Source of the DNA: a virus
Lineage: Duplodnaviria > Caudoviricetes
Strand: one strand, 5' to 3'
Length of the DNA: 64,000 nt
Virus record (IMG/VR): IMGVR_UViG_3300027374_000458
Span: 8,043-72,042 of that record
In this document: positions 1-64,000 of the stretch, piece by piece
Layout of the letters: each line of letters begins with the position of its first letter
Numbering within the stretch: position 1 is the stretch's first letter
The notes under the pieces: generated by a model
Told to the model about the DNA's origin: nothing
The model's input: only the letters and a program-made list of their open reading frames with translations
Databases searched by the model: none
Translations under genes and position numbers: made by a program

Positions 1-259
1 TGACAAAGTTTTCATCAATTTCGGCAAGTTCGGCTTGTAATCCTTCCAATGTACTGACTATACATTCAATCTCTACCCAGCCCAAACTTTTTGCAGCCTC
101 CAAACGGTGCAACCCGGCAATCAGCGTATAGCTGCTGTCAATGATGATGGGATTAAGCAGTCCTATCTCTGCAATGCTTTTTCCAAGTTCCTCTATATGC
201 TCTGGCAACACCTCACGGCGGCCAGGATTTACCTTAATCTTGTCGATTTGGATGCGCAT
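1..259 (-). CDS. ParB/Spo0J-family N-terminal domain protein (3' end runs off window)
   Basis: Manual translation MRIQIDKIKVNPGRRE...SIAEIGLLNPIII...LIAGLHRLEAAKSLGW...AEIDEN; GGAGG RBS before ATG at 259; absent from ORF track because truncated. Confidence 0.85.
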   Translation of the reverse strand, partial: MRIQIDKIKVNPGRREVLPEHIEELGKSIAEIGLLNPIIIDSSYTLIAGLHRLEAAKSLGWVEIECIVSTLEGLQAELAEIDENFV

Positions 260-261
260 AT

Positions 262-995
262 TGCACCTCCCAATTTTGCGGAAATAGCGTAGGCGGCGCC
301 GCAGGACCTTGTTGCATCCGGTTTGCTAGCCCGAATCAATTCCAGCGGCAGACCGCCTGCGCTATTCCATAATGTATAAACTATAAGGTATGTGTGCCGT
401 ATTCACAGACGACAGGATCGCCCGCTTGCTTCCGGCCCCGGCACAGGAGTATATTGTGAGCCGCCGACGGCACCCGGCGCGAAACCGACAGATGGTGATT
501 TGGCAGATGACGAGGCTGCCCAAGCCAATCCCACAGTTCTTTCCCATCTTATCCCTATGATAAGACTTTGCGCACGTCCTGTTATGTTCTCGCCTTGCCC
601 CGCGTATCAACAGCCAGGGGTCCCGCTCGTACCTTTGATGTTATCGCTTTGACGGGCAGAAAACAGATTGCTCTGTTTTCTATCCGCAGGCAGTCTTCGC
701 GTCCATAACTGTACCATAACAGAACATTTCTCACATACTGACGATGAGGAGCATTTAGCTCCTGTTTTTCAAGGTACATTCGGGGTATGTATGCCGTATA
801 CCGATACCACCCCGCACAGAGACACCTACCAGATGTGTCTGTGCCGGCCGGCATCGTTTTCTATCATGCGGCAAGGGGGTAATAAAAAAGGCAGTCAGAA
901 CTTGTGATTTGCGCAGGTGATTAAAGGTATTCTGTCGAAATGAAAAGGCCGCTGCCCTCTTTTCAGGACAACGGCCTTTCATAAGTATCATTTTT
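262..995 (-). ncRNA. Candidate long structured 5' leader upstream of parB
   Basis: No ORF with an RBS; many hairpins, e.g. GCACAG/CTGTGC, AGGAGC-TAAAT-GCTCCT, GAAAACAG/CTGTTTTC, TCTTATC/GATAAGA, and a long-range stem 576-586 with 714-724. Confidence 0.4.
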
Positions 996-999
996 ACCG

Positions 1000-1030
1000 A
1001 TTATATAGCATTTCAACAGCATGGAGACAA
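1000..1030 (-). promoter_or_regulatory. Sigma-A-type promoter reading toward parB
   Basis: TTGTCT-N17-TATATA with TG extension; overlapping TATAAT at N19. Confidence 0.55.
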
Positions 1031-1080
1031 CTTCCTTTCCGCCTTCTGACACAAATGCAATGTATCATCGGTTTACTACA

Positions 1081-1107
1081 ACATTATTTCTGTTATGTTG
1101 TAAACCG
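1081..1107. repeat. Left inverted repeat, putative tyrosine recombinase site
   Basis: ACATTATTTCTGTTATGTTGTAAACCG; 26/27 identical to the reverse complement of 1292-1318. Confidence 0.85.
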
Positions 1108-1291
1108 CCTTCGTCACGGCAAAATCCTCTGACAGGATGATACAGCAATGCCAGTGAAAATAGACAAGATTTGTGTCGATAAGGGTACAAAAATTTAAGG
1201 GGAGCAAGATTTATCTTTTCCCCTTGTAAAAACACGTGAATTTTCAAAAGTCGATTATTTGAAGTATGAATATTGCACTCCTTTTCCGTCC

Positions 1292-1318
1292 CGGTTTACA
1301 ACATAACAGAAATTATGT
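1292..1318. repeat. Right inverted repeat, overlapping the recombinase stop codon
   Basis: CGGTTTACAACATAACAGAAATTATGT. Confidence 0.85.
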
Positions 1319-2170
1319 GATAATCAGTCCCAAACGCTCAATCTGGTGGGCGTGAACAGAACCACTCTCCATCGTGTAAATGCGAGTGGTGTTAATACTG
1401 GAATGGCCCAGAATATCAGCCAACCGGGAAATATCTTTTTCAATACCATAATATGTTATAGCAAACAAGTGCCGGAGATTATGAGGGAAAACCTTATTAG
1501 CCTCAACACCGGCGCTTTCGCATAATGCTTTCATATCACGCCAGATATTAGAGCGATCCAGCGGATTACCATTCCGAGTGGTGAAAATCGCACCATCGGT
1601 TTTGTTCATTTCTTTGATGTATCTGGACAGAACTCTCTGCAATTTCTTTGGCAAAAAAATGGTTCGACGTTTCCCCTTATTGTTAATCTCCGTGCGGCCA
1701 GTATGAACTGCCTCAACAGTTATAAACTGCAGTTCAGATACCCGGATACCTGTTGCGCATATCGTTTGCACCACCAAAGCGAGACGCCGGTTTCCCGCAC
1801 CTTCTGCGGCATGGACTAAACGCTTATATTCAGCATATGTCAATTCGCGGTTCTCATCGCGGAACAGTGGCTGCTGGATTTTTAAGGGTTTAACAGTTAA
1901 ATCAGCCCACCCCATATATTTTAGAAATCCGTTGAGTGACGCCAAAACGGAATTGACAGTTGCAGTAGAATACTTATCGATTAGAGTGTTTTTCCACTCA
2001 ATAAGAGTAGATTTAGTCAGTTCCTTACCGCCAAAATATGTAGCAGCTACTTTGAGATCGTGGACATACTTTAAAACAGTAGCTGAACTTTTTTCATTTT
2101 CCTGCAAATGGGTCGAATAACTGACAATTTCTTCGTGAGTGAGTGCCCTTATGCCTTGTGTCATACGCAT
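1313..2170 (-). CDS. Tyrosine-type site-specific recombinase/integrase (XerC-like)
   Basis: TGIRVSEL, KGK.R, PHNLRHLFA, LADILGHSSINTTRIY catalytic motifs; GGAGG RBS before ATG at 2170. Confidence 0.95.
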   Translation of the reverse strand: MRMTQGIRALTHEEIVSYSTHLQENEKSSATVLKYVHDLKVAATYFGGKELTKSTLIEWKNTLIDKYSTATVNSVLASLNGFLKYMGWADLTVKPLKIQQPLFRDENRELTYAEYKRLVHAAEGAGNRRLALVVQTICATGIRVSELQFITVEAVHTGRTEINNKGKRRTIFLPKKLQRVLSRYIKEMNKTDGAIFTTRNGNPLDRSNIWRDMKALCESAGVEANKVFPHNLRHLFAITYYGIEKDISRLADILGHSSINTTRIYTMESGSVHAHQIERLGLIIT

Positions 2171-2332
2171 GGAAAAAGTCCTCCCTATATTCGATACACA
2201 TAGCGCGCGCTGCATCGAATATAAGGAGAACTATTGATATGCAAATGGCATTGTTTTAATCAAACAGATAAGCAAAAGCAAAATAATAGAAATCCCGTCC
2301 AATACATTCCGGGCTTTATGTGTAATTACTAT

Positions 2333-2361
2333 ATTGTACCATGATTCCATATAAAATGCAA
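2333..2361 (-). promoter_or_regulatory. Promoter of the recombinase gene
   Basis: TTGCAT-N17-TACAAT with extended -10 TG. Confidence 0.65.
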
Positions 2362-2367
2362 ACCATT

Positions 2368-5193
2368 TCATAATCCGTATTTTCTCTTTAGGTGCTTGAA
2401 GAATTCATTGGCTTCCCTTATTGCAGCATTTGGCAACGGACGCTCTACAAGGTACTTTGGGAGCTCCAAACCAGATGTGTTTTCATGTTTCCGGCGAAAA
2501 ACCACTTTCCTCTGTTCCAAGTCAAGATGCTGGATTTCATAGCTCTGCGACTCCCAGCAAAATGAGATTGGAGAATTGCTATGAACAGGTTCATCAAGGG
2601 ATACCGTACCACCCACTGTCTCCATTGATGCCCTATCCGTCCAAAATGTTTCGCTTGTGCTTGCCTCTGTAGGCAATTCTTCCCCAAGCAGCTTCTCAAT
2701 ATCCTTAAAGCGAAATACAACAATATTTTTTTTGCAAAGGCGAAAGTATTCGCGTAACCCATCATATGGCTGCTTCAAAATGGAAATTGGCTCTGATACT
2801 TTTTCGAGCTTTTCAAGAATCGGTATGGGTTCAGCCTCCGCTTCATCTTGAACAAACCCTGCACAGGCTGTATGGACATAAGCATATTTCAGGCTCTTAT
2901 TTGGCGCCTTGGGGTTGACCTCAACTAAAGTAATATCCTGATCCATCAACATGCGCCGTTCACAATAAAAGCACCGGCCCTCCTGTCTTGTCCAGATACC
3001 TTTACGTTCTACGCCGCTCACCTTCTGGTTATCACGCCTACGTTTCAACTGCTCATAATAAGTAATATCCAAATATGGCTGATAACCTGTCTTGATTGGA
3101 ATATGCTGGGCGACATTCATGTCAGAAAGGAAAATAACAGAATGCGTTGGCGTATCCGGTAGAGCAAAAACATGACGTTCTTGAGAGTCTGTTACCCAAT
3201 ACTTATTTACCAGATGTCCCATCTGACGCGCAGGGTGAAGTTCCCTCACCTTTTCCAGCAAAAAGGTTTGAACGCTGCTGTCAATGGTGCGAAAAGCCTC
3301 CCGCGCATCTGTTACACGATGATAGTTTCCCCAACCGGCCAGTTTGCGGTTTAAGCCATCAATCAATTTTAGCTGTGACCCCTTAAAGCCGGAGATATAG
3401 CGTTGCAGCCGCGCTTGGAAATTATCTACGGCTCTTTCCGATGGTTCAGATACCAGCAATGCGCCATGGTACTTTCGCTGATACCATCGGGATAAAAACT
3501 CAAACCCTTCTTCAATATCCACAATGCTGCTTTTGCTCCAATTCAATTCCAGGCCGCGCACAGCAAGAAACTCTTGTATGACCTCCATAATGACTTGGGC
3601 GGATTCAAGGCTTCTTGCGGTAAAAATTAAGTCATCCGCAAATCTCACCATGGAGCCATTGCCATAATCTATAGGCCCATTGCCGTAGAGACGATCAAAT
3701 ACGACACCCTGCAGTCCATCCAAGGTCATGTTTCCCAAAATTGGAGACAGCGATGCTCCCTGTGAAATTCCATACTCCAAAGGCGGAAACAATTCTCCAT
3801 CGTAAATTGAGCCTGCGCTAAGCGTTTCAGCCAAAACTTTCTTATCAAGCGGGATATTTCTTATGAGCCAGTCATGGGATATCCTGTCGTAGCACTTCCT
3901 TACGTCAGCCCGGACAACAAAGCGTGGGGATCTGTCACCGCTGAAATTTCGCTGAATATATGAGTGTGCATCAAAAATCGAACGCCCTTTCCGAAATGCG
4001 TAGGATTGCCTGTCGCCCAGTGATTCAGCAACCGGATCAACGGAATATGCGTAGAGCACCTGCATGGCTTTATCATAGCAGACTGGGATATTGATCCCTC
4101 GCTCTTTCCCATCTGCATTTATGATAATTTTCCTGTATGGCTTTGCATGATACCCCTTCGAGGTGAGCGAAAGGGCCGCCTCCATTTTTTCTGCATCTGT
4201 AGTCCACTTCATACCGTCAATTCCCGGTTCGGAATCCTCTTTCACTACATGGCGAACAGCCAGAACCTTCGCCCACCGGGAGCGTACCAACACCTTTTGG
4301 ACTTCTGTAACCTCGGACATGTTTCTGGCATATGTCAACCGGGAAATGCTTTGCTGGTATTTCAGCAGCTCCCGTTCTGCACGTTCCCAGTCCATTTCCT
4401 GCCATTCTTGGGCCAATTCATTTTGTGATGTTATTCTTTGCGGCGCACGCTCTCGAATGGTCAATTCAATCGGGCAGTGATCAGAGCCGAGCACATCCGT
4501 TAAGTGCCGGATATCACAAACATCATTTACAATATCCTTTGTGACGAGAAAATAATCCAATCGCCAGCCCCGGTTTTCCAATCGTTTGTTCAGGCGATTC
4601 GACCACCATGTATAGGCTCCCGTCCTCTTGGGATACCAGTTGCGGAATACATCGACAAAGCCTGCCTCCAATAGAGCTTCAAAGCCTTCCCGTTCCTCTG
4701 AACGAAATCCGGGAGGGCTTTCTTCATTACGCAAATTTTCCGGGTAGATGTCAATATAATCTCGCGCAACATTGATATCGCCACAAAGTATGACCGGTTT
4801 GGGTAACTGCCGGAGGTAAAACAGCAGTTCCGAATCCCACTCCAAACGATACTCCAGCCGGTCTAAACTATGTTGTGAATTGGGAAAGTACGCATTGACC
4901 AGAAAAAAGCCAGGATATTCTAACGTCACAAGACGGCCCTCATCATCGAATTTTTCAACGTCAAACCCATATCGGACAGAAAGTGGTTCAATCCTTGACA
5001 GTGTAAGCGTACCAGAGTATCCAGGCCGTTTTGCTGCATTCCAATATGCGTGAAATCCGGACAATTCAAAATCCGCCATGCCCTTTGTTTCCTGGAGGCA
5101 GATCACATCAGCATCCGCTTTTTCAAAAAAACGGACAGAATTATGTTTTATATATGCTCGCAACCCGTTAATATTCCAGGATATGATTTTCAT
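2368..5193 (-). CDS. Exonuclease III/AP endonuclease fused to a group II intron-like reverse transcriptase, with maturase, degenerate HNH and C-terminal domains
   Basis: N-term SWNING, LQETK, NAYFPN, CGDIN, WRLDY, SDHCP; then RT motifs YAFRKGRS, DVRKCYDRISHDW, SQGASLSP, RFADD (aa 518-521); LAGWGNYH thumb; CFYC...HTAC. Confidence 0.92.
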   Translation of the reverse strand: MKIISWNINGLRAYIKHNSVRFFEKADADVICLQETKGMADFELSGFHAYWNAAKRPGYSGTLTLSRIEPLSVRYGFDVEKFDDEGRLVTLEYPGFFLVNAYFPNSQHSLDRLEYRLEWDSELLFYLRQLPKPVILCGDINVARDYIDIYPENLRNEESPPGFRSEEREGFEALLEAGFVDVFRNWYPKRTGAYTWWSNRLNKRLENRGWRLDYFLVTKDIVNDVCDIRHLTDVLGSDHCPIELTIRERAPQRITSQNELAQEWQEMDWERAERELLKYQQSISRLTYARNMSEVTEVQKVLVRSRWAKVLAVRHVVKEDSEPGIDGMKWTTDAEKMEAALSLTSKGYHAKPYRKIIINADGKERGINIPVCYDKAMQVLYAYSVDPVAESLGDRQSYAFRKGRSIFDAHSYIQRNFSGDRSPRFVVRADVRKCYDRISHDWLIRNIPLDKKVLAETLSAGSIYDGELFPPLEYGISQGASLSPILGNMTLDGLQGVVFDRLYGNGPIDYGNGSMVRFADDLIFTARSLESAQVIMEVIQEFLAVRGLELNWSKSSIVDIEEGFEFLSRWYQRKYHGALLVSEPSERAVDNFQARLQRYISGFKGSQLKLIDGLNRKLAGWGNYHRVTDAREAFRTIDSSVQTFLLEKVRELHPARQMGHLVNKYWVTDSQERHVFALPDTPTHSVIFLSDMNVAQHIPIKTGYQPYLDITYYEQLKRRRDNQKVSGVERKGIWTRQEGRCFYCERRMLMDQDITLVEVNPKAPNKSLKYAYVHTACAGFVQDEAEAEPIPILEKLEKVSEPISILKQPYDGLREYFRLCKKNIVVFRFKDIEKLLGEELPTEASTSETFWTDRASMETVGGTVSLDEPVHSNSPISFCWESQSYEIQHLDLEQRKVVFRRKHENTSGLELPKYLVERPLPNAAIREANEFFKHLKRKYGL

Positions 5194-5246
5194 GACAATA
5201 CCTCCAGCTGCTGCCTAATTCGTATCTGTCTTTAATCACTTATCTC

Positions 5247-5269
5247 ATTATAACATATACAAACTTTTC
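5247..5269 (-). promoter_or_regulatory. Extended -10 promoter for the ExoIII-RT gene
   Basis: TGT-TATAAT about 55 nt upstream of the ATG, which has a GGAGG RBS. Confidence 0.6.
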
Positions 5270-5359
5270 GCAAAATAAATTTGCATTTGTGCTGTGGCTC
5301 CACGAAAATACAACAGATTTGATAAAAACCGTCCCAATAATCTCGCTTGCGAATCCCCC

Positions 5360-5836
5360 TCAAATCGCAAGGTTTATAATTTTCAAGCCTTGTCCACGGG
5401 CATAATTTACAGTATATGCTGTACCGCCTTCTGATTTTGTCATATAGCAAACGCAGGTTCCGCTATGGTCTACCAGATGCCGGTTTCGTTTGAACATGCA
5501 GCCACGGGTATATTCCTGGGATGTATAGACAATTTTATCCGCCTGCGCTTTAATCCCCTCGTAGATCTCCTGATCCCTGCCGCTCCACTTCTGCGCCTGA
5601 GAAAGACAGGGAAGGACAAGGATCAGCTTAATTTGAGGAATTTCTTCACGCAGCTTGAGAACTACCTTTGATGAGACCGTATCGAATCCTAAAGCTCCGC
5701 CTGCTCCATAGTAAACAATCTTCTGCTCAACAAGCGTTCGGATCAGGGCTTCCAGCTTTTTCTCCAAAATCGAAATTTGCCCCTGTGGAATGTTCCTGTG
5801 ACCTGTAAAACAGCAGGTCATGTCTCTCATTGTCAT
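5360..5836 (-). CDS. SLOG-family (DUF1273/YpsA-like) protein
   Basis: CCFTGHR, GAGGALGFD, RNRHLVD, GGTAYTVNYA. Confidence 0.85.
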   Translation of the reverse strand: MTMRDMTCCFTGHRNIPQGQISILEKKLEALIRTLVEQKIVYYGAGGALGFDTVSSKVVLKLREEIPQIKLILVLPCLSQAQKWSGRDQEIYEGIKAQADKIVYTSQEYTRGCMFKRNRHLVDHSGTCVCYMTKSEGGTAYTVNYARGQGLKIINLAI

Positions 5837-5959
5837 AGCCGCCTCCAAAATGTAATTTATAAAATCGTTCTATTATACCACCATAGGGGAATAATAGCCA
5901 CTATGAGGGATTACAAAAACCGCAAATTCGCTATATTCTTCCCCTATAGGGGAGGTGGT

Positions 5960-6307
5960 ATGATAATGGAGAATCCAAAAACAAAAAATGATGTTCTTGT
6001 CCAGATCGGACGTCGGCTTGCCAAAACGCGCACAGACAGAGGCTGTACCCAGGAACAACTGGCAAATATGACCGGACTTTCCATCAAAATGATTTCCGCC
6101 GCCGAGAATGGACATAAGGCCATGCGGCCAGAAAATATCATAAAAATATGCGACAGTCTTTCAATTTCAGCAGATTACCTTCTGCGTGGAGAATCCCCCT
6201 TTCTCGGCGCTGTGATTGAACGCGAAAAAATCAACGCCCTGACGCAAAAGCAGCGAGAATCGCTCTCAAAAATCATTACTGATTTTCTTTCCGCATTTGA
6301 AGCATGA
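5960..6307 (+). CDS. XRE-family helix-turn-helix repressor
   Basis: IGRRLAKTR...TQEQLANMTGLSIKMISAAENG...ICDSLSISADYLL; GGAGG RBS. Confidence 0.92.
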   Translation: MIMENPKTKNDVLVQIGRRLAKTRTDRGCTQEQLANMTGLSIKMISAAENGHKAMRPENIIKICDSLSISADYLLRGESPFLGAVIEREKINALTQKQRESLSKIITDFLSAFEA

Positions 6308-6323
6308 GGTTCTGCATACCCAT

Positions 6324-6370
6324 AAAAGCAGGGGCCAGACAAGAAAAAAACTGACCCCTGCTTTTGTTTT
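6324..6370 (+). terminator. Intrinsic terminator after the XRE gene
   Basis: AAAAGCAGGGG...CCCCTGCTTTTGTTTT. Confidence 0.7.
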
Positions 6371-6499
6371 TTCATATCAATCGAGCAGATAGAGTAAGCT
6401 GTGATCCTGCATTTTCACAAAGCATACAGCAAAAGCGAGTTTTACAAGGATAATATAATGTATTCGACAATAATATACAAAATGTGCGAATAATCTTCG

Positions 6500-6528
6500 T
6501 TGACATCCACTATATTATGTGGTATGGT
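6500..6528 (+). promoter_or_regulatory. Strong sigma-A promoter of the plus-strand arm
   Basis: TTGACA-N17-TATGGT with extended -10 TG. Confidence 0.75.
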
Positions 6529-6534
6529 TAATGT

Positions 6535-6820
6535 GTAATTGATTGTTTGTGCGTTCCTCACTGAAAGCGTGAGGCTGGGCCGGTGGTCTGGGAACGGGAG
6601 GCACCCGTATTGCACACGTTGTCAGGGTTGTACGTTATACCGGCAGGGTCGTTGCGCAGATAGGCGGACGATTGCCGGTGGATTTTATGGGGGCAGTCTG
6701 CCCCAACGCCTTTGGGCGGGAATGACAGTTTCTCTCCAGATTGGAGGGAGAAAGCGGTTTTGGAACCGCCAGTCTGTCATCCCGCTCTTTTTTTATGCTC
6801 AAACGCCGAAAGGTTTTGAG
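6535..6820 (+). ncRNA. Candidate structured 5' leader ending in a branched terminator-like stem
   Basis: Several hairpins; GCGGGAATGACAG/CTGTCATCCCGC encloses two hairpins and is followed by a T-tract. Confidence 0.5.
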
Positions 6821-6848
6821 AAATACATTTTTGAAAGGAGCACATGAC

Positions 6849-7031
6849 ATGACGAAGAAGTGGAAGCACAAGAGGAATCCCAAGCCCCGCAGCGGCCCTA
6901 CCAGAGGCAAGTACCGCCAGATGTGGAAGGTCCAGATCAGGGACATGATTCCCGGAGAGGAGGAAACGCAGTGTGAACAAGTCGTACCAGCCTTTGGTAC
7001 TGGCGGATACCGCCAATCTCGCGCGGCCTGA
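6849..7031 (+). CDS. Small Lys/Arg-rich protein
   Basis: AAAGGAG RBS; MTKKWKHKRNPKPRSGPTRGKYRQMWK; overlaps the next gene by 59 nt. Confidence 0.5.
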   Translation: MTKKWKHKRNPKPRSGPTRGKYRQMWKVQIRDMIPGEEETQCEQVVPAFGTGGYRQSRAA

Positions 7032-8007
7032 CTGGCTGACTCTGCGCCGGAGAGGTCTTGGTGGCAGCGATGCGGCGGCAGTTCTAAGCATCTCGCCCTT
7101 TCGGACGGCCCGGGATCTGTACTACGACAAACTCGGTATTGTCACGGCAGACGATCAAGCCAACTGGGTCGCATTGGAGGTCGGCAATCTGCTGGAACCT
7201 TTGGTTGCCCGTATCTTTGAGGCAAAGACTGGTCTGAAGGTCTACCAGCGGAAATGTATGTTCCAGCACCCGCTCTACCCCTGGATGCTGGCGGATCTGG
7301 ACTACCTAGTAGATTTACCGGACGGAACTACGGCCATCGTGGAAATCAAGACCACCAACTATAACGCAAAGGACAAATGGTGGTACAACGGAGCAGAAAT
7401 CGTACCAGTGTACTATGAAACCCAAGGCCGGCATTATATGGCGGTCATGAATCTGAACCGCGTCTACTACTGCTGTCTTTATGGCAACAATGAAGACGAG
7501 GCTATTGTCCGGCATATTGACCGGGACATGGCCTACGAGGCGGAGCTGATTGCGTTGGAACATGATTTTTGGCACGAGAATGTACTGGCGCATGTCCCGC
7601 CCCCCTATACAGAGGACGGCGACCTTATTCTGGAGAGCCTGCGGCGGTCATTAGGCCCATCGGATGCGGACGAACCACCGGTGGAGTTTTCAAAAACGCA
7701 GTCTGACCGAATCGCCCGGTATCTGGAGCTTCAAGAGGAAAAGAAACGGTACGACAGCGATACGAAAGCGGTCGATGCAGAAATGCAGCGTCTGAAAGCC
7801 CTCATCGTTGCCGACATGGGCCACAGCAGCACCGCAATTTGTGAAGATGGCTGCACCGTGAGCTGGAAGCCGGTTCGTAAAGTCGGAATATCCAAACACG
7901 ACTTGGAACGTCTGAAAGAGGTGCATCCCGAAATTTACGCAGAGTACGCATCAGTCTCCGAAAGCCGGCGCTTCAATATCAAGCTGCCCAAGCCAGAGGC
8001 TGCGTAA
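6973..8007 (+). CDS. YqaJ-like viral recombinase family exonuclease
   Basis: RRRGLGGSDAA, ADLDY, VEIKT, QGRHYM; GGAGG RBS. Confidence 0.92.
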   Translation: MNKSYQPLVLADTANLARPDWLTLRRRGLGGSDAAAVLSISPFRTARDLYYDKLGIVTADDQANWVALEVGNLLEPLVARIFEAKTGLKVYQRKCMFQHPLYPWMLADLDYLVDLPDGTTAIVEIKTTNYNAKDKWWYNGAEIVPVYYETQGRHYMAVMNLNRVYYCCLYGNNEDEAIVRHIDRDMAYEAELIALEHDFWHENVLAHVPPPYTEDGDLILESLRRSLGPSDADEPPVEFSKTQSDRIARYLELQEEKKRYDSDTKAVDAEMQRLKALIVADMGHSSTAICEDGCTVSWKPVRKVGISKHDLERLKEVHPEIYAEYASVSESRRFNIKLPKPEAA

Positions 8008-34676: not shown

Positions 34677-34722
34677 AAAAACCGGGGGCACTTCACGTAG
34701 ATATAGTGCCCCCGGTTTTTTT
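34677..34722. terminator. Bidirectional terminator after the methylase-helicase
   Basis: AAAAACCGGGGGCAC...GTGCCCCCGGTTTTT. Confidence 0.8.
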
Positions 34723-37700
34723 ATGCAATTTTTTGTTCGCCCCAACGGATTTCAAAATGTCCGTCCTCGTCCACCTCACGGCGCATCAGCAATGACAGAA
34801 GATCGTAGTCAATGCCAAATTTTTTATAAACTTCATCCAGGTTTGTATCCTGTCCCTTCATAAACAGATTCAGCTTTTCTTTGACTAAAACCATCTGCAT
34901 CAGGTTAGATTCCAGACTGCCAGCATAGGTAAGAAAGTAGATGTCCTTATACGCAGTGGAGTTGTACCGGATAAACCGCATATAGAATTGACTCATAGCC
35001 GCATTGTTGTAATGCAGCTCAGGAATAATAACACGATTGACGTACTCAAAATTAACGCTGCTGGGCAAACTCTGCTGGGTGCAGAGCAGTATGCCGTTTC
35101 CACTGTCCCGGAGCGTTTTTCGGAGTGCTCGGCGCTTTGCAAAAGAGGTGGTGGCACCGGTGACGACAAAGAGCGGTCTATCCGGCATGAACCCTTGGAC
35201 CGCCTCGGCATACTTGTCTAATACAGACTTGTGGCGGACGCCAATGGCAACGGTTTCATTCGGCCATTGGGCGGCCAGTTCCACCGCAGTTAAAATTTTT
35301 GCCGGCACATCTCCATTGTACTCGCTCATGGAATTGGGCGCCGCACTGAAGCGCAGCAGCAGGGTAATTTGCTGGATCAAACGGAGCATGGAATCCTTGC
35401 GGTGGTCGCCAGTGGAGGCAAAGTATCTTCGCTGAATCATATGGAAGTCACTGATAATCTTTTTATAGATGATCTGCTCCTCCGATGTGAAGTCCACAAG
35501 GACCTGATGAAAACGACGAATCTCCTTCCCCACAATCTCCGCAAAGGTTCGTGTAATGACGGTCTTTCCCAAAATATCACTGAGCACATCAGAATTGTAG
35601 ATGTCCTGCGTCCGCTCATTGACGCCAAACACAGTTGCTTTTTCCGGCAAGTGACTGGCGGCGAACAACTTATAGCCCTTTTTATACGCAGGAATTGGCT
35701 CTCCGTAATGGATGTTTGGACTTGCCTCCAAATCGCCTGTTTTCCTGTCATAATGGTAGAGCTCAGTACACCATGAGATCATATTGATAGAATTATTATA
35801 AAGCAATTCCATCTGAGGCGCAAACTCCGAGATGTTATTGCGTGTGCTGGTGCCGGTAGTCAGCAGCTTGAAATGGCTGCGCCGAAAGCAGGTGAGCGAG
35901 GCTTTTGCCCGGATTGTGTCGGGATTGGCGATTTCATCACTTTCATCCAACACCAGCTGTATCTTCTGGTTGTGTTGCTTAATCCACCTCCTGATATGCC
36001 GCTGGAGCTGGCCCAGCTTGTTCAGTGTTACCAGTACAAAGTCACCGGGTTTGATATGTTTCAAATCCGCCAGCCGCTCCACAAATATATACTGGATATT
36101 GTAGTTTTTGAGGACTACATCCCAGTTGTTGCGGATGGAGATAGCGGAGGACACTACCCAGGTGGAATGAACATTTTGCCGCTCCATACGGTATAACCCC
36201 ACGGCAATTCCTGCCAGCGTCTTACCACTGCCTTGCTCCCACTGGAGCATTCCGTATTGCTTTTGCAGGATCAGGTTGATGTCATGACGTTGGATGTCGT
36301 TCAGTCTGATATATTCTTCATTTTCTTCGTCCCACAGGTCAAACTGCCTCAGCCATGCTGCAATATCCGCATCCTCCTCCATCTTGGAGAAGTATTGGTT
36401 TTGAGTGTCATATTCTCGGCGCTTTCTCCGCAGCATTTTTGAAAAGCCGGGATACTCCTCCGAGGCTTCGTCCAATACCGCATGATAGATTGGGACGAGC
36501 CGGCGCATGGAATCGGACATCTGCCGGCGCACCTTGGCGCTGTACCCCTTATAAACAAGACAGCCTTCCTGCTTTACCAGTGCGATCACATCCCGCTCCG
36601 GTTTCTTGTTCTGTTTCCGGAGGGCTGTTCGCAGATAGGCAATCACCTTAGCCTCGGTCAGCCTAACTCGGCACCACTCGTCGTAGGACATATTGGGCGG
36701 CTGCACCTGGGTATAGAAGCGGTGCAGGTACTCACAGCACTTCATGTACTTGCCCCGCACGGCGGGATGTGCCTTGATCTGATACAGCAGCTTTTGCGTC
36801 TGATAGACGAAATCCTGAGAGGACTGATGTTCTTTCGCCAGATCCAGCAGAATACGCGATTTGTTCCGCTCCAGATCTGCTTTGGGGAGCAACAAAATTT
36901 TCTGATAGATCCACTCCGCCGTTTGCTGCGGGTCAAACCCAGCAGCCAATGTTTCCATCGGTTCGATCTCATACCGCTTGGCGGTCCAACCCTCTGCGGT
37001 ACTGCTTTTCTGCCAAAATTGGATCTTAGTCGCAAACGACTTTACCCCCAACTCGGCAAAGGCATCTTCCGGCAGTTTGACCTGACCCAGAAAACTGAAC
37101 CGCTTTTCCATTTCGCGGATCATCTTCTTGTCCATAAATGGGTCGGCCAAAAAGGACTGCGGAACAATAAGCGATAAAATGCCAAGGGGCTTCAAAAGCT
37201 CTGCGGCTTTCACACAATAGAACAGCTGGGACAGCATTTCCTCCCCGCTTTCCGTTCGCCAGCGCAGATGAAAGGGCGGGTTGCCCACCACATAATCAAA
37301 ACGCGGTTCCGGTGTGTAGGCGCGGATATCACCCTGGGTCAGATTTGCTTTGGGATAGAGAAAACGAGCCACCTTATATGCTTTCATATCCAGCTCACAG
37401 CCATAAAGGTTTTCCTCCACCGGAAAAAAATTGAAGAAGCTGCCTTTCCCGCAGGTGAGATCCGCAACCAGTTCGTAATCTGCCGGCCTGATTGCGGCTG
37501 CAACGAGGCGGCATAGTTCAGGCGGCGTAAAAAACTGCCCGTTTTCGATTTCCTTTTTTGCTTCGCTGAAGCTGTGGTAATCGGTATAGTCGCTTCGTTC
37601 CAGCCCATGCAGGCCACCGTCCCCGGTATAAGCATTGTAAATGTCCTCGCCGGTGATGCCGTATTCCTGAAAAGCACCGCTGTCGATCAAATAGAGCACT

Positions 37701-37762
37701 TTTTCGTTCAACGTCCTTCTCTGTTCCACAGTGAATAGGGCTGGTTGACACTGATATTTCAT
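34721..37762 (-). CDS. N6-adenine DNA methylase-SNF2 helicase fusion (DarB-like architecture)
   Basis: GQFFTP, DLTCGKG, VVGNPPF; EQGSGKT, LDESDE, TTGT; GGAGG RBS. Confidence 0.85.
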   Translation of the reverse strand: MKYQCQPALFTVEQRRTLNEKVLYLIDSGAFQEYGITGEDIYNAYTGDGGLHGLERSDYTDYHSFSEAKKEIENGQFFTPPELCRLVAAAIRPADYELVADLTCGKGSFFNFFPVEENLYGCELDMKAYKVARFLYPKANLTQGDIRAYTPEPRFDYVVGNPPFHLRWRTESGEEMLSQLFYCVKAAELLKPLGILSLIVPQSFLADPFMDKKMIREMEKRFSFLGQVKLPEDAFAELGVKSFATKIQFWQKSSTAEGWTAKRYEIEPMETLAAGFDPQQTAEWIYQKILLLPKADLERNKSRILLDLAKEHQSSQDFVYQTQKLLYQIKAHPAVRGKYMKCCEYLHRFYTQVQPPNMSYDEWCRVRLTEAKVIAYLRTALRKQNKKPERDVIALVKQEGCLVYKGYSAKVRRQMSDSMRRLVPIYHAVLDEASEEYPGFSKMLRRKRREYDTQNQYFSKMEEDADIAAWLRQFDLWDEENEEYIRLNDIQRHDINLILQKQYGMLQWEQGSGKTLAGIAVGLYRMERQNVHSTWVVSSAISIRNNWDVVLKNYNIQYIFVERLADLKHIKPGDFVLVTLNKLGQLQRHIRRWIKQHNQKIQLVLDESDEIANPDTIRAKASLTCFRRSHFKLLTTGTSTRNNISEFAPQMELLYNNSINMISWCTELYHYDRKTGDLEASPNIHYGEPIPAYKKGYKLFAASHLPEKATVFGVNERTQDIYNSDVLSDILGKTVITRTFAEIVGKEIRRFHQVLVDFTSEEQIIYKKIISDFHMIQRRYFASTGDHRKDSMLRLIQQITLLLRFSAAPNSMSEYNGDVPAKILTAVELAAQWPNETVAIGVRHKSVLDKYAEAVQGFMPDRPLFVVTGATTSFAKRRALRKTLRDSGNGILLCTQQSLPSSVNFEYVNRVIIPELHYNNAAMSQFYMRFIRYNSTAYKDIYFLTYAGSLESNLMQMVLVKEKLNLFMKGQDTNLDEVYKKFGIDYDLLSLLMRREVDEDGHFEIRWGEQKIA

Positions 37763-37773
37763 ACCCGCCTCCG

Positions 37774-38664
37774 TCAGCACATAGTTCCGAGATATTTATG
37801 AGCAAATTCTCCAGCAAGCTCTCCATTGGAAAATTTCAAATCCACACGGCCATTTTTGAACATTTTCAGGCCCCTGATTTTTTCACCGCTGGGCCAGTCG
37901 ATAAAGTCAACTGTTATGCTTTTCCCATCCAGCAGTTCAGGGACACCCTGGGGGAACGAATGATAGCTCCCCGTTTCAAAATGGACGGCTCCGCGCAAAA
38001 TCTCCCGCATATCCTCTGTCAGTTTCCACCACTCACAAATACCGCACTCATAATTACTGAAATAATTCAAAAAATGGATTGTACCTTTAGCTACTTCAAA
38101 TTTTGGTATCTGTTTCTGGATATTCCAAGCCGCCCTATGGCATCGCTCACATATCTCATGGAACGCTTGTTCAGAGAAACTGCGTCCGTCCAGCCGTAGG
38201 ATGATCTGTTCCATCACCGACTGATATGGAACGGTCAGAGTCTGTATCTGCTCTCGGTAATGCGCCGCTTCTGTTTTGGTGCAGTTTGCTGGTTCCTTCG
38301 GCAGAATGGATTTACATATGTCCTCAGCGTCTACCGTCACATGATAGGCTTCGTTAAAATAGCGAACCAGCATATGGATAAAATCCGTATGCAGATGCTC
38401 AATGTGCGCGTCAATCGCCTCCTGTGATAGATCTGGGCCGTCCGGCGACAAAAGGTAGTCATGGAATTGAGGGTTGTCCTTTTGACCCCCCAACAGTTCC
38501 TCCTGTGCTCTTTTCATGTCGGACACAAAGAAAGCCAGTTCTTTAAACCCCGCAAGCGCCGCTTGATAGGCGGCCTGCTGGGCATCACAGTACTGCCGGT
38601 CGGCTGCGGAGAAGCGATTGTCTGCCCTGATTTCCACTGCTGCAAATTTTTCCAACAGATCCAT
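37774..38664 (-). CDS. Hypothetical protein
   Basis: GGAGG RBS before MDLLEKF; C-term KMFKNGRVDLKF. Confidence 0.75.
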   Translation of the reverse strand: MDLLEKFAAVEIRADNRFSAADRQYCDAQQAAYQAALAGFKELAFFVSDMKRAQEELLGGQKDNPQFHDYLLSPDGPDLSQEAIDAHIEHLHTDFIHMLVRYFNEAYHVTVDAEDICKSILPKEPANCTKTEAAHYREQIQTLTVPYQSVMEQIILRLDGRSFSEQAFHEICERCHRAAWNIQKQIPKFEVAKGTIHFLNYFSNYECGICEWWKLTEDMREILRGAVHFETGSYHSFPQGVPELLDGKSITVDFIDWPSGEKIRGLKMFKNGRVDLKFSNGELAGEFAHKYLGTMC

Positions 38665-62151: not shown

Positions 62152-63234
62152 TCAGGCGGCCATGCTGCTAACTTGGTTGATCCGCCGGAAAATCTCCGGG
62201 TTCATGGTCATGACCGAATAGCCGATACTCTCAAGCTGGGTGGCTCGGTCATAGCTTTCCACGTCCTGGCTGTGCCGCGTGACGGCGTTTGCCAGACCGT
62301 AAACAGTATAGTCAGCGTCCTCAATCAGGCGCTGAAGTACGCCGCCGCTCTCCGCTTCCGTGATGCCAAAGCTGGAGCTTGCCAGCTTGACCACGCCGGG
62401 GAGATCTGCGGTATTCAGGTGCATCTGTGTACTTTCCCGCATTTTGCCCAGAACCTGAGTAAAGCGGGCCTCGTCCACCGCCGACCGCACCGTGTCCCGA
62501 ATCTTCAGGACAAATGCCTTATCATCGGCGGCCAGTGTCTCCTGGGAATAGAGGTAGAAGTTTTCATCCGTGGTGTTGACACGACCAATATGGGTGCGCC
62601 GCGTCCTCGCCTCGTTGACCACCATTCCGTTTGAGCAGACCAGACGGTAAATCAGCGGCTGAATGCTCACAGCACCCAGTCCGGTTTCGCTGTTGGAGAT
62701 TATCACGCCTGCCTGCACAATGTCACCGGGCCTCACCTCGGCGGTAAGCCGGGGATTGACTACTTTAATATAAAGGAAATCCTCGGTGAGCTGACAGCTT
62801 TCATAGTAGGCATCCTGCATCTCCTCGATGACAGGAAGTGTGATGTTGGCGATGTCCAGGTTATCAATGCGGCGGTAACGGTCGCTGAGAAACGCCCTGG
62901 CCCGGCCATCCATAGTGCGGATCAAGCGGGTCTCGGCGCTCCGGCTGAGCCAGCTGTTGACATTATCCGCCAAAAGGCCCATATTCTCCGTCAGCATCTT
63001 CTCGTAATACTTCTGGGGGATTCCCAGATACGCACCGAGTTGCCGGTGGGCCGTCTGCTGGATATCCAGTGGTTCCACACGGTCTATGCCATCGTTGCCC
63101 AGGAGCCGTAGCACCGGAGCACTGCCGCTTGTTTCCATGTGCATGTTGGCTGTGTTGACCGCATAGTCTTGTTTTGCCTTGCTTTGGCGCAGGATCTCCC
63201 GCGCCATGTCCTGAATGGTCAGTCCTGCTTTCAC
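62152..63234 (-). CDS. DUF932 domain-containing protein
   Basis: RAFLSDRY, ISNSETGLGA, YRLVCSNGM, YGLANAVT; AGGAGG RBS plus GTG. Confidence 0.85.
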   Translation of the reverse strand: MKAGLTIQDMAREILRQSKAKQDYAVNTANMHMETSGSAPVLRLLGNDGIDRVEPLDIQQTAHRQLGAYLGIPQKYYEKMLTENMGLLADNVNSWLSRSAETRLIRTMDGRARAFLSDRYRRIDNLDIANITLPVIEEMQDAYYESCQLTEDFLYIKVVNPRLTAEVRPGDIVQAGVIISNSETGLGAVSIQPLIYRLVCSNGMVVNEARTRRTHIGRVNTTDENFYLYSQETLAADDKAFVLKIRDTVRSAVDEARFTQVLGKMRESTQMHLNTADLPGVVKLASSSFGITEAESGGVLQRLIEDADYTVYGLANAVTRHSQDVESYDRATQLESIGYSVMTMNPEIFRRINQVSSMAA

Positions 63235-63247
63235 ATTGCTCCTCCTT

Positions 63248-64000
63248 TCACCAAGCGACAATAATGCCCGCATCGGTGGCTGTGGCGGCAAGTCCGTTAT
63301 TCTCCAGCACCTTCACCAGACTAGGCCAGTAGACCTTATCAGGGAAGGAGGGGAACATGCCGTGGGAGACTTCCTCACTGCCGTCTACCGGCTTAATGCA
63401 GATATTGCCATCCTCTTTCAACGTCAGGCTATGGTGCCCACGGGATGCCAGATCTGCCACCAGCGTTTCCAGGATGTCGCTGCCCTGCGTTTCATACCAG
63501 ATGCGCGGGTCCAGTGACTCCTGACCCGGCGCCGCAGGTTTCTCCTTCGTCCCGTTGATGGGGGCAATCTGAACAAGGGAACAGGCCAGTTTTCCATTCC
63601 GATCCAGGGTGACATCCGCATAATCATAGTCAGGAACGCCGGATACGCGGATACGTCCGGTGCCGCCCACAGCCACAAAGGCTGCGGGATCTTGCATGAC
63701 CCATTCCCAAGTGGCCTCCGGGAAAGCCGATTTCAGGCAGCCGGAAATCCGGTAATTGACGTGATGCAGAAGCGTTCGCATGAGCGCCGTGTCGGGATTG
63801 GATATCCGTTCTGTCTGTCGGAATGTCCGCACGGTGCGTTTGGCAGGAAGCACCTGAGTCAAGATGACCCAGAGGCCCCATACGGCGAACACGGCAATCA
63901 GCAGGGCGTTGCGCAGGATACCGTTGGTGAGGGCCAGAATGGCGATTACTACGCCAATCAGGATGGAAATGCTGCCCCACAGGGGGGTGTTTCTTTTCAT
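63248..64000 (-). CDS. Hypothetical membrane-anchored protein
   Basis: Two N-terminal hydrophobic helices; ATG at the window edge. Confidence 0.75.
   Translation of the reverse strand: MKRNTPLWGSISILIGVVIAILALTNGILRNALLIAVFAVWGLWVILTQVLPAKRTVRTFRQTERISNPDTALMRTLLHHVNYRISGCLKSAFPEATWEWVMQDPAAFVAVGGTGRIRVSGVPDYDYADVTLDRNGKLACSLVQIAPINGTKEKPAAPGQESLDPRIWYETQGSDILETLVADLASRGHHSLTLKEDGNICIKPVDGSEEVSHGMFPSFPDKVYWPSLVKVLENNGLAATATDAGIIVAW

What the first reader, a model, noticed from the sequence alone, without database searches (positions are those of the whole stretch)
2368..5193. Intact AP endonuclease (ExoIII) fused in frame to a group II intron-like RT: LINE-like architecture in a bacterial element
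Seen: one uninterrupted 941-aa ORF. Its first ~245 aa keep the ExoIII/APE catalytic motifs (WNING, LQETK, NAYFPN, GDIN, RLDY, SDH at aa 237-239). A full group II intron-type RT follows, with a FADD active site (nt 3631-3642) and a maturase/thumb. Established: APE plus RT is the domain order of LINE-1-type ORF2p, whereas bacterial group II intron proteins use a C-terminal HNH. Some stand-alone group II-like RTs (G2L4) act in DNA repair. Inference: this is either a single-protein abasic-site cut-and-fill repair enzyme (the element also encodes LigA and a clamp), a bacterial target-primed retrotransposition enzyme, or a conflict effector.
Basis: partly seen in the sequence, partly recalled or inferred. 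Interest (0 to 1): 0.9.

Follow-up and report, generated by a model that had tools for sequence, protein, structure and literature searches.

The report
AP-endonuclease fused to intron-less reverse transcriptase
A mobile element of a gut Clostridia-type bacterium carries an intact gene that joins a DNA-repair nuclease (ExoA/APE1 type) to a reverse transcriptase descended from group II introns but without any intron, and this pairing, fused or as two coupled genes, defines a large undescribed family that probably cuts or cleans damaged DNA and then copies from the new end.

Summary
Window 2368-5193 (minus strand) is one 941-aa ORF: an ExoA/APE1-type nuclease with all catalytic residues, a group II intron-type RT with FADD, a thumb, a dead HNH that keeps its zinc ligands, and a winged-helix-like DUF7662 tail.

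It is not an artefact or a one-off. More than 1000 homologues share the architecture. In many relatives the nuclease and the RT are two translationally coupled genes (ATGA overlap), and fused and split forms interchange at least six times on the tree.

It is not an intron. The nearest relatives (40-42% identity) are true group II introns with detectable ribozymes; family loci have none, and no room for one. I found no sign of retrotransposition: single copy, and one context per variant.

The gene is rare in species genomes and sits as cargo on integrative, plasmid-like or prophage elements. Frequent neighbours are XRE regulators, YpsA-SLOG proteins, YolD plus Y-family polymerase operons, and restriction/BREX genes.

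My best reading (0.42) is a DNA-damage processing module on mobile elements: the nuclease incises or cleans a 3' end and the RT extends it. The main rival is a conflict (defence or anti-defence) system (0.30). The LINE ORF2p likeness is convergent. I found no published description, and the scan has not met this family on other DNA.

The parts
2368..5193 (-). Whole 941-aa ORF (P0001): ExoA-type nuclease, group II-type RT, thumb, D/dead HNH, DUF7662
   Evidence: full-length AF2 model with mean pLDDT 80.6
4456..5193 (-). ExoIII/ExoA/APE1-type AP endonuclease domain (aa 1-246) with an intact catalytic set
   Evidence: xth TIGR00633 264 bits. PDB 5cfe, B. subtilis ExoA: 1.5e-76; TM 0.90 and 48% identity. 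Invariant Y102, D139, N141, D213, D238, H239
4405..4455 (-). Linker (aa 247-263). In split relatives this is where the nuclease gene stops and the RT gene starts
   Evidence: pLDDT below 50 at aa 249-254; ATGA/GTGA stop-start overlaps in relatives
3493..4404 (-). RT N-terminal extension (RVT_N, aa 264-343) plus fingers and palm (RVT_1, aa 360-567)
   Evidence: Best PDB match is the T.el4h group II intron maturase-RT 6me0_C, 6.4e-87; TM 0.85-0.91
3631..3642 (-). FADD polymerase active-site motif (aa 518-521); [F/Y]ADD across the family
3196..3423 (-). Thumb / maturase X domain (GIIM, aa 591-666)
2824..3195 (-). D region and degenerate HNH. The Zn ligands C741, C744, H774 and C777 (nt 2863-2973) are invariant; the catalytic His is absent
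   Evidence: weak HNH fold matches, Z 4.7 to IscB and Cap5 HNH
2371..2772 (-). DUF7662 winged-helix-like domain plus a conserved C-terminal helix ending KKYGL (aa 808-941)
   Evidence: PF24698 in homologue P0004. AF2 of the tail, then VIA-align Z 5.7 RepE, 5.1 Pi, 5.0 CtsR; conserved across the family
5194..5359 (-). Spacer upstream of the ORF, with an extended -10 box (TGTTATAAT, about 5246-5254) and SD GGAGG (5201-5205). Only these two elements are conserved among the 80% relatives
5360..5848 (-). YpsA-family SLOG gene directly upstream (probable start ATG 5836). The same neighbour recurs in at least six family lineages
   Evidence: PF06908 1.3e-17
5966..6307 (+). XRE-type HTH regulator, divergent from the SLOG and Exo-RT genes
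   Evidence: HTH_19/HTH_3; start read from the sequence; recurrent neighbour
1313..2215 (-). Tyrosine recombinase directly downstream, with its own conserved promoter. It is a neighbour only in the 80% clade
   Evidence: Phage_integrase 9e-27

Best explanation
The gene encodes a domesticated, intron-less group II intron-type reverse transcriptase that works as a fixed pair with an ExoA/APE1-type nuclease. The two are fused here and are two translationally coupled genes in many relatives. The pair is carried as cargo on mobile elements. Most likely it is a DNA-damage processing enzyme. Step 1: the nuclease incises abasic sites or trims 3'-blocked or 3'-mismatched ends and leaves a 3'-OH. Step 2: the RT, which keeps the N-terminal extension, palm and thumb that let group II RTs act on DNA ends, extends that end on a DNA or RNA template, giving gap filling, lesion bypass or microhomology end joining. 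Step 3: the zinc-binding dead HNH and the winged-helix DUF7662 tail hold the DNA. Expression comes from the gene's own promoter beside an XRE regulator. What is shown: the domain make-up, conserved catalytic residues, absence of an intron, conservation and repeated fusion/fission of the pair, and the gene neighbourhoods. What is inferred: all enzymatic steps and the biological role.
For: Both active sites are intact and invariant across 27 relatives. The nuclease is canonical: 48% identical to B. subtilis ExoA, 43% to APE1, and 43-53% to the hosts' own Xth. The pairing is ancient and selected. RT-tail sequences of 37 fused and 23 split representatives form one clade (SH-aLRT 100), with at least 6 fused/split changes. 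Split forms have ATGA/GTGA overlaps with an internal SD. The Exo domains group together apart from housekeeping Xth. The neighbours point to damage tolerance. YolD-like plus Y-family polymerase genes occur in 8 loci, and in L156, L137 and L043 they form a co-directional string of Y-pol, YolD, Exo, RT with short gaps. YpsA-SLOG lies directly upstream in at least 6 lineages, and B. subtilis YpsA protects against oxidative stress (PMC6459960). There is precedent: G2L4 RT repairs double-strand breaks, a mobile group II RT has basal repair activity (PMC12337344), and the PrimPol-RT hybrid PPRT acts in oxidative damage response (PMC12439943).
Against: No activity was measured. The family is rare: 1 of 401 species genomes in the order and 1 of 401 in the phylum sample. 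Hosts already have Xth, so a repair role would be redundant. Neither YolD/Y-pol nor SLOG is an obligatory neighbour (4 and 5 of 28 dereplicated loci within four genes), and Y-family polymerases are common cargo of mobile elements anyway. Several loci sit next to defence genes, which fits a conflict role equally well. My neighbourhood sample is about 30 lineages, with no background statistics.
Confidence: 0.42

Rival explanations
1. It is a conflict system, either anti-phage defence or an element's counter-defence or establishment function. The nuclease-RT pair senses or attacks foreign nucleic acid and makes a DNA product, as DRT systems and retrons do. The SLOG protein or other neighbours act as effector or sensor, and the XRE regulator keeps the system off.
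For: The family is rare and patchy, and it rides on mobile elements. In the window it lies between the recombinase and the divergent XRE regulator, which from general knowledge is a usual slot for prophage accessory genes. Known defence genes lie within 10 kb in several lineages. These are type III restriction with methylase and SNF2 (L133, L206, L202), BrxC (L156, L129), ZacC (L010, E=0), a GajB/RTasHel-like helicase (L043) and PDC-S02 (L133). An MBL protein with a PADLOC 'RT-associated MBL' hit shares the operon in L206. YpsA-clade SLOG proteins are linked to nucleotide-centred conflict systems (PMC6459960). About 25% of G2L RTs lie near defence genes (PMC8632793).
Against: No defence model matches the protein beyond its generic RT domain: Drt models score 13-30 bits against cutoffs of 200-550, and the PADLOC hits cover the RT region only. 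There is no conserved adjacent non-coding RNA or spacer. The nuclease looks like an unmodified housekeeping-type AP endonuclease. The SLOG gene itself has no PADLOC hit. Defence genes are common cargo on the same elements, so adjacency is weak evidence.
Confidence: 0.3
2. It is an autonomous bacterial retrotransposon that moves by target-primed reverse transcription, as LINE ORF2p does. The nuclease nicks the target and the RT copies its own mRNA into the nick.
For: The domain order (APE, RT, then a Cys/His zinc motif) parallels L1 ORF2p, a comparison made from general knowledge. Both activities look intact. The RT keeps the N-terminal extension shared with non-LTR RTs.
Against: There is one copy in the 72-kb record and one in the Oscillibacter MAG, and no extra copy of the 3' end. 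Identical proteins found on many contigs always sit in one context: P0120 on 24 contigs read, P0108 on 24, also P0014 and P0025. Flanks are not conserved beyond a promoter and SD. In some loci neighbouring genes abut or overlap the ORF. Many members are two genes inside longer operons. The element relies on serine and tyrosine recombinases.
Confidence: 0.05
3. It is a working group II intron protein whose intron swapped its HNH endonuclease for an APE domain, with a ribozyme too divergent to detect.
For: The RT, thumb and D regions are 40-42% identical to true intron proteins. The best PDB match is the T.el4h intron RT.
Against: Rfam finds D1-D4 and D5/D6 ribozyme parts around six of the nearest outgroup RTs. 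It finds nothing around the window at E<=1, and nothing in six family loci at Rfam gathering thresholds. The space is missing: 166 nt upstream in the window, 79 nt in L010 and a 4-nt gene overlap in L004. The nuclease domain or gene occupies the place where intron domains I-III would lie.
Confidence: 0.02
4. The fusion is an assembly artefact or a private accident in this one record.
For: None was found. Note that the window comes from a metagenome-derived provirus record.
Against: An identical protein cluster has 12 member sequences. The 120 best of more than 1000 hits are nearly all full length with the same domains, from ENA, JGI, Logan and NCBI assemblies. The architecture is conserved at 42-88% identity.
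Confidence: 0.01

Closest known systems
G2L4 group II intron-like RT (Pseudomonas aeruginosa; PMC12337344, bioRxiv 10.1101/2022.03.14.484287)
   Same: Both are free-standing RTs descended from group II intron RTs, without a ribozyme, and put to a cellular DNA transaction (break repair by microhomology end joining). Both keep the N-terminal extension, palm and thumb.
   Different: G2L4 has YIDD and an RT3a plug insertion, and no nuclease partner is described for it. This family has [F/Y]ADD, keeps the D region and a dead HNH, adds a DUF7662 tail, and is always paired with an ExoA-type nuclease. G2L4 was not among the 60 listed PDB sequence matches (69 in all).
LINE-1 ORF2p and other APE-type non-LTR retrotransposon proteins
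   Same: The order of parts is the same: N-terminal APE-fold nuclease, RT with N-terminal extension, then a C-terminal Cys/His zinc motif. In principle the nuclease could supply the primer 3'-OH.
   Different: The nearest relatives of this RT are bacterial group II intron proteins, not LINE RTs. The nuclease is close to housekeeping ExoA/Xth (48-53% identity). There is no sign of multicopy spread. Split two-gene forms are common. The likeness is convergent.
Mobile group II intron proteins with D/En domains, such as T.el4h (PDB 6me0, 8fli)
   Same: They give the best sequence and fold match for aa 252-762 (6.4e-87; TM 0.85-0.91). The nearest metagenomic relatives (40-42% identity) are introns carrying the group-II-D1D4-7 ribozyme.
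   Different: There is no ribozyme. The HNH has lost its catalytic His. N-terminal nuclease and C-terminal DUF7662 were added. The protein is below the NCBIfam group_II_RT_mat cutoff (217.6 against 300).
PPRT / DRT7 (UG10) PrimPol-RT hybrid (PMC12439943)
   Same: An N-terminal DNA-repair-type enzyme domain is fused to an RT and followed by a long C-terminal domain. PPRT is reported to act in both oxidative damage response and phage defence, the same two roles debated here.
   Different: PPRT belongs to a different RT lineage (UG/Abi) and has a different partner domain (PrimPol). Protein-primed synthesis is not indicated here.
RT-Cas1 fusions (formerly G2L1/G2L2; PMC2602772)
   Same: A group II-like RT occurs either fused to its partner enzyme or encoded next to it, depending on lineage.
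   Different: The partner there is Cas1 in a CRISPR array context. No cas genes or arrays were seen here.

Membership tests
ExoIII/ExoA/APE1 AP endonucleases (xth, TIGR00633; PF03372) | Profile match above the curated cutoff over the whole domain | tested here: met
   TIGR00633 264 bits against 99.05; TIGR00195 244 against 182.55; PF03372 89 against 24.5
ExoIII/ExoA/APE1 AP endonucleases (xth, TIGR00633; PF03372) | Catalytic and metal-binding residues (N7, E35, Y102, D139, N141, D213, D238, H239) present | tested here: met
   Present in P0001, and invariant or at least 90% conserved in 27 relatives
ExoIII/ExoA/APE1 AP endonucleases (xth, TIGR00633; PF03372) | Four-layer alpha/beta sandwich fold that superposes on solved members | tested here: met
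   AF2 model against 5cfe ExoA, TM 0.90, rmsd 2.3, 48% identity; APE1 TM about 0.81
ExoIII/ExoA/APE1 AP endonucleases (xth, TIGR00633; PF03372) | AP-site incision and 3'-5' exonuclease activity | not testable with these tools
   Needs an enzyme assay
Mobile group II intron-encoded protein | RT with RVT_N, RVT_1 and maturase/thumb (GIIM) domains | tested here: met
Mobile group II intron-encoded protein | ORF embedded in a group II ribozyme (D1-D4 upstream, D5/D6 downstream) | tested here: not met
   No Rfam match at E<=1 in window 1-8000, and none at gathering thresholds in six family loci. Six outgroup loci served as positive control and all have it. The upstream space is too short
Mobile group II intron-encoded protein | NCBIfam group_II_RT_mat equivalog cutoff | tested here: not met
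   217.6 bits against a cutoff of 300
Mobile group II intron-encoded protein | Catalytic HNH endonuclease (in En-plus lineages) | tested here: not met
   The CxxC...HxxC zinc ligands are invariant, but the catalytic His position reads V/I-E across the family. The fold match to HNH is weak only
G2L4 repair RT | YIDD at the active site | tested here: not met
   FADD here; R[F/Y]ADD in all 27 aligned relatives. The feature is as given in PMC12337344
G2L4 repair RT | RT3a 9-aa insertion forming an active-site plug | not tested
   No G2L4 sequence was available by reference for alignment
APE-type non-LTR (LINE) retrotransposon | N-terminal APE domain followed by RT in one protein | tested here: met
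APE-type non-LTR (LINE) retrotransposon | RT belongs to the non-LTR clade | tested here: not met
   The nearest relatives are bacterial group II intron proteins. There is no ORF2p among the top 50 fold matches, though that list is crowded with APE1 entries
APE-type non-LTR (LINE) retrotransposon | Dispersed multicopy insertions, 5' truncations, target-site duplications | tested here: not met
   Single copy in G000 and G001; one context per protein variant over dozens of contigs. The sample is limited
Defence-associated RTs (DRT/UG-Abi) and retrons | Match to a family-specific model at its cutoff, or the characteristic partner or ncRNA | tested here: not met
   Drt3a 30.4 against 200, Drt2 22.7 against 390, retron St85 26.3 against 235. 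The PADLOC hits are generic RT hits. No ncRNA was found

The most novel reading that the evidence does not exclude
The pair is a prokaryotic nick-primed reverse transcription machine. The AP-endonuclease makes a nick at a lesion or in foreign DNA, and the group II-type RT copies an RNA into DNA from that 3'-OH. That would mean target-primed reverse transcription, the LINE mechanism, evolved independently in bacteria for RNA-templated repair or immunity rather than for mobility.
Probability: 0.2. Interest if true: 0.9.

Novelty: new variant of a known kind. Interest (0 to 1): 0.68.

Why it matters
Bacterial RTs that left their introns have turned out to do unexpected jobs, including CRISPR spacer capture, break repair and antiviral DNA synthesis. 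This family adds a pairing that I found in no paper: a canonical AP endonuclease locked to a group II-type RT. The pairing is kept through repeated gene fusion and fission, which is strong genomic evidence that the two enzymes act on the same substrate.

It is also a natural, independent re-invention of the LINE ORF2p layout, from the very lineage thought to be ancestral to LINEs. That makes the step from nuclease acquisition to priming experimentally approachable in a bacterial protein.

A compact nickase-plus-RT enzyme is the kind of activity that genome-writing methods assemble artificially, so its biochemistry would have practical interest. If instead it is simply a repair accessory of mobile elements, it still extends the small set of RTs linked to DNA repair.

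Tried and rejected
- Rfam at E<=1 on window 1-8000 gave only two chance eukaryotic hits.
- A megablast of window 1-6400 against INPHARED phages gave nothing. tblastn there found only separate RT or Xth genes and no fused form.
- The C-terminal 261 aa has no match in PLSDB plasmids.
- The genome-contig scan returned one relative, the Oscillibacter MAG.
- Order- and phylum-level genome samples found the family only in that MAG. This is 'not found in those searched', using a single-protein query.
- IMG/VR gave only about five family members among 80 loci; the rest were Xth genes.
- Foldseek of the C-terminal model against PDB gave no hit at E<=0.001. VIA-align gave only middling Z (5-5.7) to winged-helix domains, so that fold assignment is tentative.
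- The 949-aa ORF next to the gene in L043 is unrelated to it.
- The listing of cluster members gave almost no names or taxa.
- Seven full-text searches and three papers read for this purpose turned up no description of an ExoIII-RT pair or of DUF7662.
- Complex prediction was not used: the repeated fusions already argue that the two parts act together.
- I could not place the RT on a reference tree with named G2L, CRISPR or UG classes, because no reference sequences were available by id.
Full report
**1. The observation**

The ORF lies on the minus strand at 2368-5193 and encodes 941 aa. Its ATG at 5193 sits 8 nt downstream of GGAGG. An extended -10 box, TGTTATAAT, lies in the 166-nt spacer upstream.

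Pfam finds Exo_endo_phos (aa 4-239), RVT_N (264-343), RVT_1 (360-567) and GIIM (591-666). NCBIfam places aa 1-246 in xth well above cutoff (264 against 99 bits). It scores aa 309-648 against group_II_RT_mat below cutoff (217.6 against 300).

**2. Not an artefact, not a one-off**

A search of the 5.8-billion-protein set gave more than 1000 hits. The best 120 are nearly all 908-979 aa with the same four Pfam domains, from four data sources. An identical cluster has 12 members.

In an alignment of 27 members at 42-88% identity, these are invariant or nearly so:
- the nuclease catalytic residues;
- the RT motifs, including R-[F/Y]-A-D-D;
- four zinc ligands, C741, C744, H774 and C777.

The HNH catalytic histidine position is not kept. 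The last ~135 aa match DUF7662 (PF24698) in relatives and are conserved to the final KKYGL.

**3. Fused and split forms**

In loci fetched from metagenomes and IMG/VR, tblastn showed the nuclease and the RT in different frames in many members. Reading the junctions showed two genes. The nuclease gene ends ...SDHCPIxLEVxL-stop. The RT gene starts at an ATG or GTG overlapping that stop (ATGA/GTGA), with GGAGG about 8 nt upstream inside the nuclease gene. Two loci have a short spacer with its own ribosome-binding site.

A profile search of 1.84 billion representatives with the C-terminal region found both size classes, about 666-716 aa (RT plus tail) and about 920-980 aa (fused).

On a tree of the RT-to-end region, 37 fused and 23 split representatives form one clade (SH-aLRT 100, stem length 0.7), sister to true intron proteins. 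The fused/split state changes about 10 times, and well-supported branches force at least 6 of those. 'Split' was scored from protein length and absence of the nuclease domain. In every split locus I could inspect, the nuclease gene was adjacent.

The nuclease domains of fused and split members fall on one side of a branch (SH-aLRT 70, weak). They are apart from 28 housekeeping Xth of the same bacterial order and from 16 viral Xth. This fits one old recruitment followed by co-evolution.

**4. Origin of the RT, and no intron**

The nearest non-family RTs (40-42% identity over the RT, 26-30% over the HNH region, with no nuclease and no DUF7662) are real group II introns. In six such loci Rfam finds group-II-D1D4-7 about 460-570 nt upstream and the D5/D6 model just downstream. 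The same search finds nothing in six family loci. A permissive search finds nothing in window 1-8000.

There is also no room for a ribozyme. The upstream spacer is 166 nt here and 79 nt in L010, and in L004 the upstream gene overlaps the start by 4 nt.

The best solved relative of aa 252-762 is the T.el4h intron RT (6.4e-87; TM 0.85-0.91 to the AF2 model).

**5. The nuclease**

- It is 48% identical to B. subtilis ExoA (TM 0.90).
- It is about 43% identical to human APE1.
- It is 43-53% identical to the chromosomal Xth of related bacteria.
- The Oscillibacter MAG that carries an 82% relative also has its own separate xth.

So the domain looks like an ordinary AP endonuclease/3'-exonuclease, not a diverged, sequence-specific LINE-type nickase.

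**6. The tail**

AF2 of aa 681-941 (pLDDT 71) gives two parts. One is a small HNH-like zinc module (Z 4.7 to IscB and Cap5 HNH). The other is an alpha/beta module whose best matches are winged-helix DNA-binding domains (RepE Z 5.7, Pi 5.1, CtsR 5.0). These scores are middling, so the fold call is tentative.

DUF7662 also occurs as 7-10 tandem copies in other proteins and as small proteins of about 125-180 aa.

**7. No sign of mobility of the gene itself**

- There is one copy in the 72-kb record and one in the MAG.
- There is no second copy of the 3' end.
- Identical proteins seen on many contigs always lie in one gene context.
- Among the 80% relatives, only a promoter and SD are conserved upstream, and only the recombinase promoter downstream.

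**8. Where it lives**

The window is part of an IMG/VR 'provirus' record. That record carries these genes:
- replication and partition: YqaJ, a RecD2-like helicase, a primase with YodL, LigA, a ParM-like actin and ParB-like genes;
- plasmid- or ICE-like: PcfJ, PcfK, DUF932 and a methylase-helicase;
- recombination: a tyrosine recombinase and three large serine recombinases.

I found no capsid, terminase or tail gene among the ORFs I scanned, so it may be an integrative plasmid-like element rather than a phage.

The first 6 kb, which hold the recombinase, Exo-RT and SLOG genes, have 44-46% GC. The rest has 50-58%.

The family was found in 1 of 401 species genomes of the order and 1 of 401 of the phylum sample. 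Atlas clusters name Bacillota and tailed viruses, and one member is from a Rikenellaceae MAG.

**9. Neighbours**

I called ORFs in 47 family loci and clustered them. I then scanned 142 neighbours, within four genes on either side, from 28 dereplicated loci. The commonest families were:

| Family | Neighbours matched |
|---|---|
| XRE-type HTH (HTH_3) | 8 |
| YpsA-SLOG | 5 |
| Resolvase | 4 |
| Y-family polymerase IMS | 4 |
| SNF2 | 3 |
| Sigma70_r4 | 3 |

- **SLOG.** It lies directly upstream in the window's clade and in L010, L044, L045/L148, L134 and L202.
- **YolD and Y-family polymerase.** A YolD-like protein (PF08863) and a Y-family polymerase occur in 8 loci. In L156, L137 and L043 the order is Y-pol, YolD, Exo, RT, co-directional with short gaps.
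- **Mobility genes.** Relaxase and MobC genes and serine recombinases are frequent.
- **Defence genes within 10 kb.** These are type III restriction with methylase and SNF2 (L133, L206, L202), BrxC (L156, L129), ZacC (L010), a GajB-like helicase (L043) and PDC-S02 (L133).

**10. Reading**

The firm part is the anatomy. This is a domesticated group II-type RT whose constant partner is an ExoA-type nuclease, with the ancestral HNH reduced to a zinc module and a DNA-binding-like tail added.

The function is inferred. The most specific associations all concern oxidative or abasic DNA damage:
- the canonical AP endonuclease itself;
- operons with YolD and a Y-family polymerase;
- YpsA-SLOG, whose B. 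subtilis member protects against oxidative stress (PMC6459960).

Group II-type RTs are known to repair breaks (PMC12337344). A PrimPol-RT hybrid acts in oxidative damage response as well as in defence (PMC12439943). I therefore favour a cut-or-clean-then-copy damage-processing module carried by mobile elements (0.42).

A conflict role (0.30) is the serious rival, on three grounds: the family's rarity, its slot beside recombinase and regulator, and its defence-gene neighbours. Retrotransposition (0.05), a cryptic intron (0.02) and an artefact (0.01) are disfavoured. The remainder is left for roles not considered.

**11. Novelty**

Seven full-text searches and targeted reading of RT surveys and reviews found no mention of an ExoIII/APE-RT pair in bacteria or of DUF7662. 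Sources annotate members only as 'exodeoxyribonuclease III' or 'group II intron RT'. The library is incomplete, so prior description elsewhere cannot be excluded.

I rate it a new variant of a known kind, namely domesticated group II-like RTs with a partner enzyme. Its layout converges on LINE ORF2p.

Noticed in passing
L124:2638-2640 and L125:10187-10189: Two closely related family members each carry a single in-frame TAG, at different places, where relatives have CAG or CAA (Gln). This could be independent nonsense mutations, or TAG read as Gln in a recoded phage.
   Followed up: partly
L153, L155, L140 (RT genes): In these loci the RT gene is broken into two or three ORFs, so some family members are decaying.
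   Followed up: no
P0122, P0123, P0124, P0146: Proteins of 770-1314 aa hold 7-10 tandem copies of the DUF7662 module and have no RT. Small proteins of about 125-180 aa made of DUF7662 alone were also listed; some may be fragments.
   Followed up: no
window 1-6000 against 6000-64000: The recombinase, Exo-RT and SLOG block has 44-46% GC while the rest of the element has 50-58%. That suggests the block is a later acquisition.
   Followed up: no
window 6973-33001 and 62152-63291; L003:276-8301: The IMG/VR 'provirus' carries plasmid- or ICE-like genes: PcfJ, PcfK, YodL-primase, ParM-like actin, DUF932, ParB-like genes and three large serine recombinases with DUF4368. No capsid, terminase or tail gene was found among the ORFs scanned. 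It may not be a phage.
   Followed up: partly
L206:2497-4257: In the Rikenellaceae locus the SLOG gene is replaced. An MBL-fold protein (PADLOC RTasMBL 5e-15, LmuA 7e-17) and a 176-aa protein of no known family sit upstream in the same orientation, and a type III restriction enzyme abuts the 3' end.
   Followed up: partly
window 2216-2367: The spacer between the RT gene and the recombinase gene has about 100 nt that the three 80% relatives lack. Only the recombinase promoter is shared.
   Followed up: no
window 34721-37780 (-): A 1019-aa protein has an N-terminal DNA methyltransferase-like region and a helicase (PHROG 24008). It gives weak DarB-like antirestriction hits.
   Followed up: no
   Followed up: no
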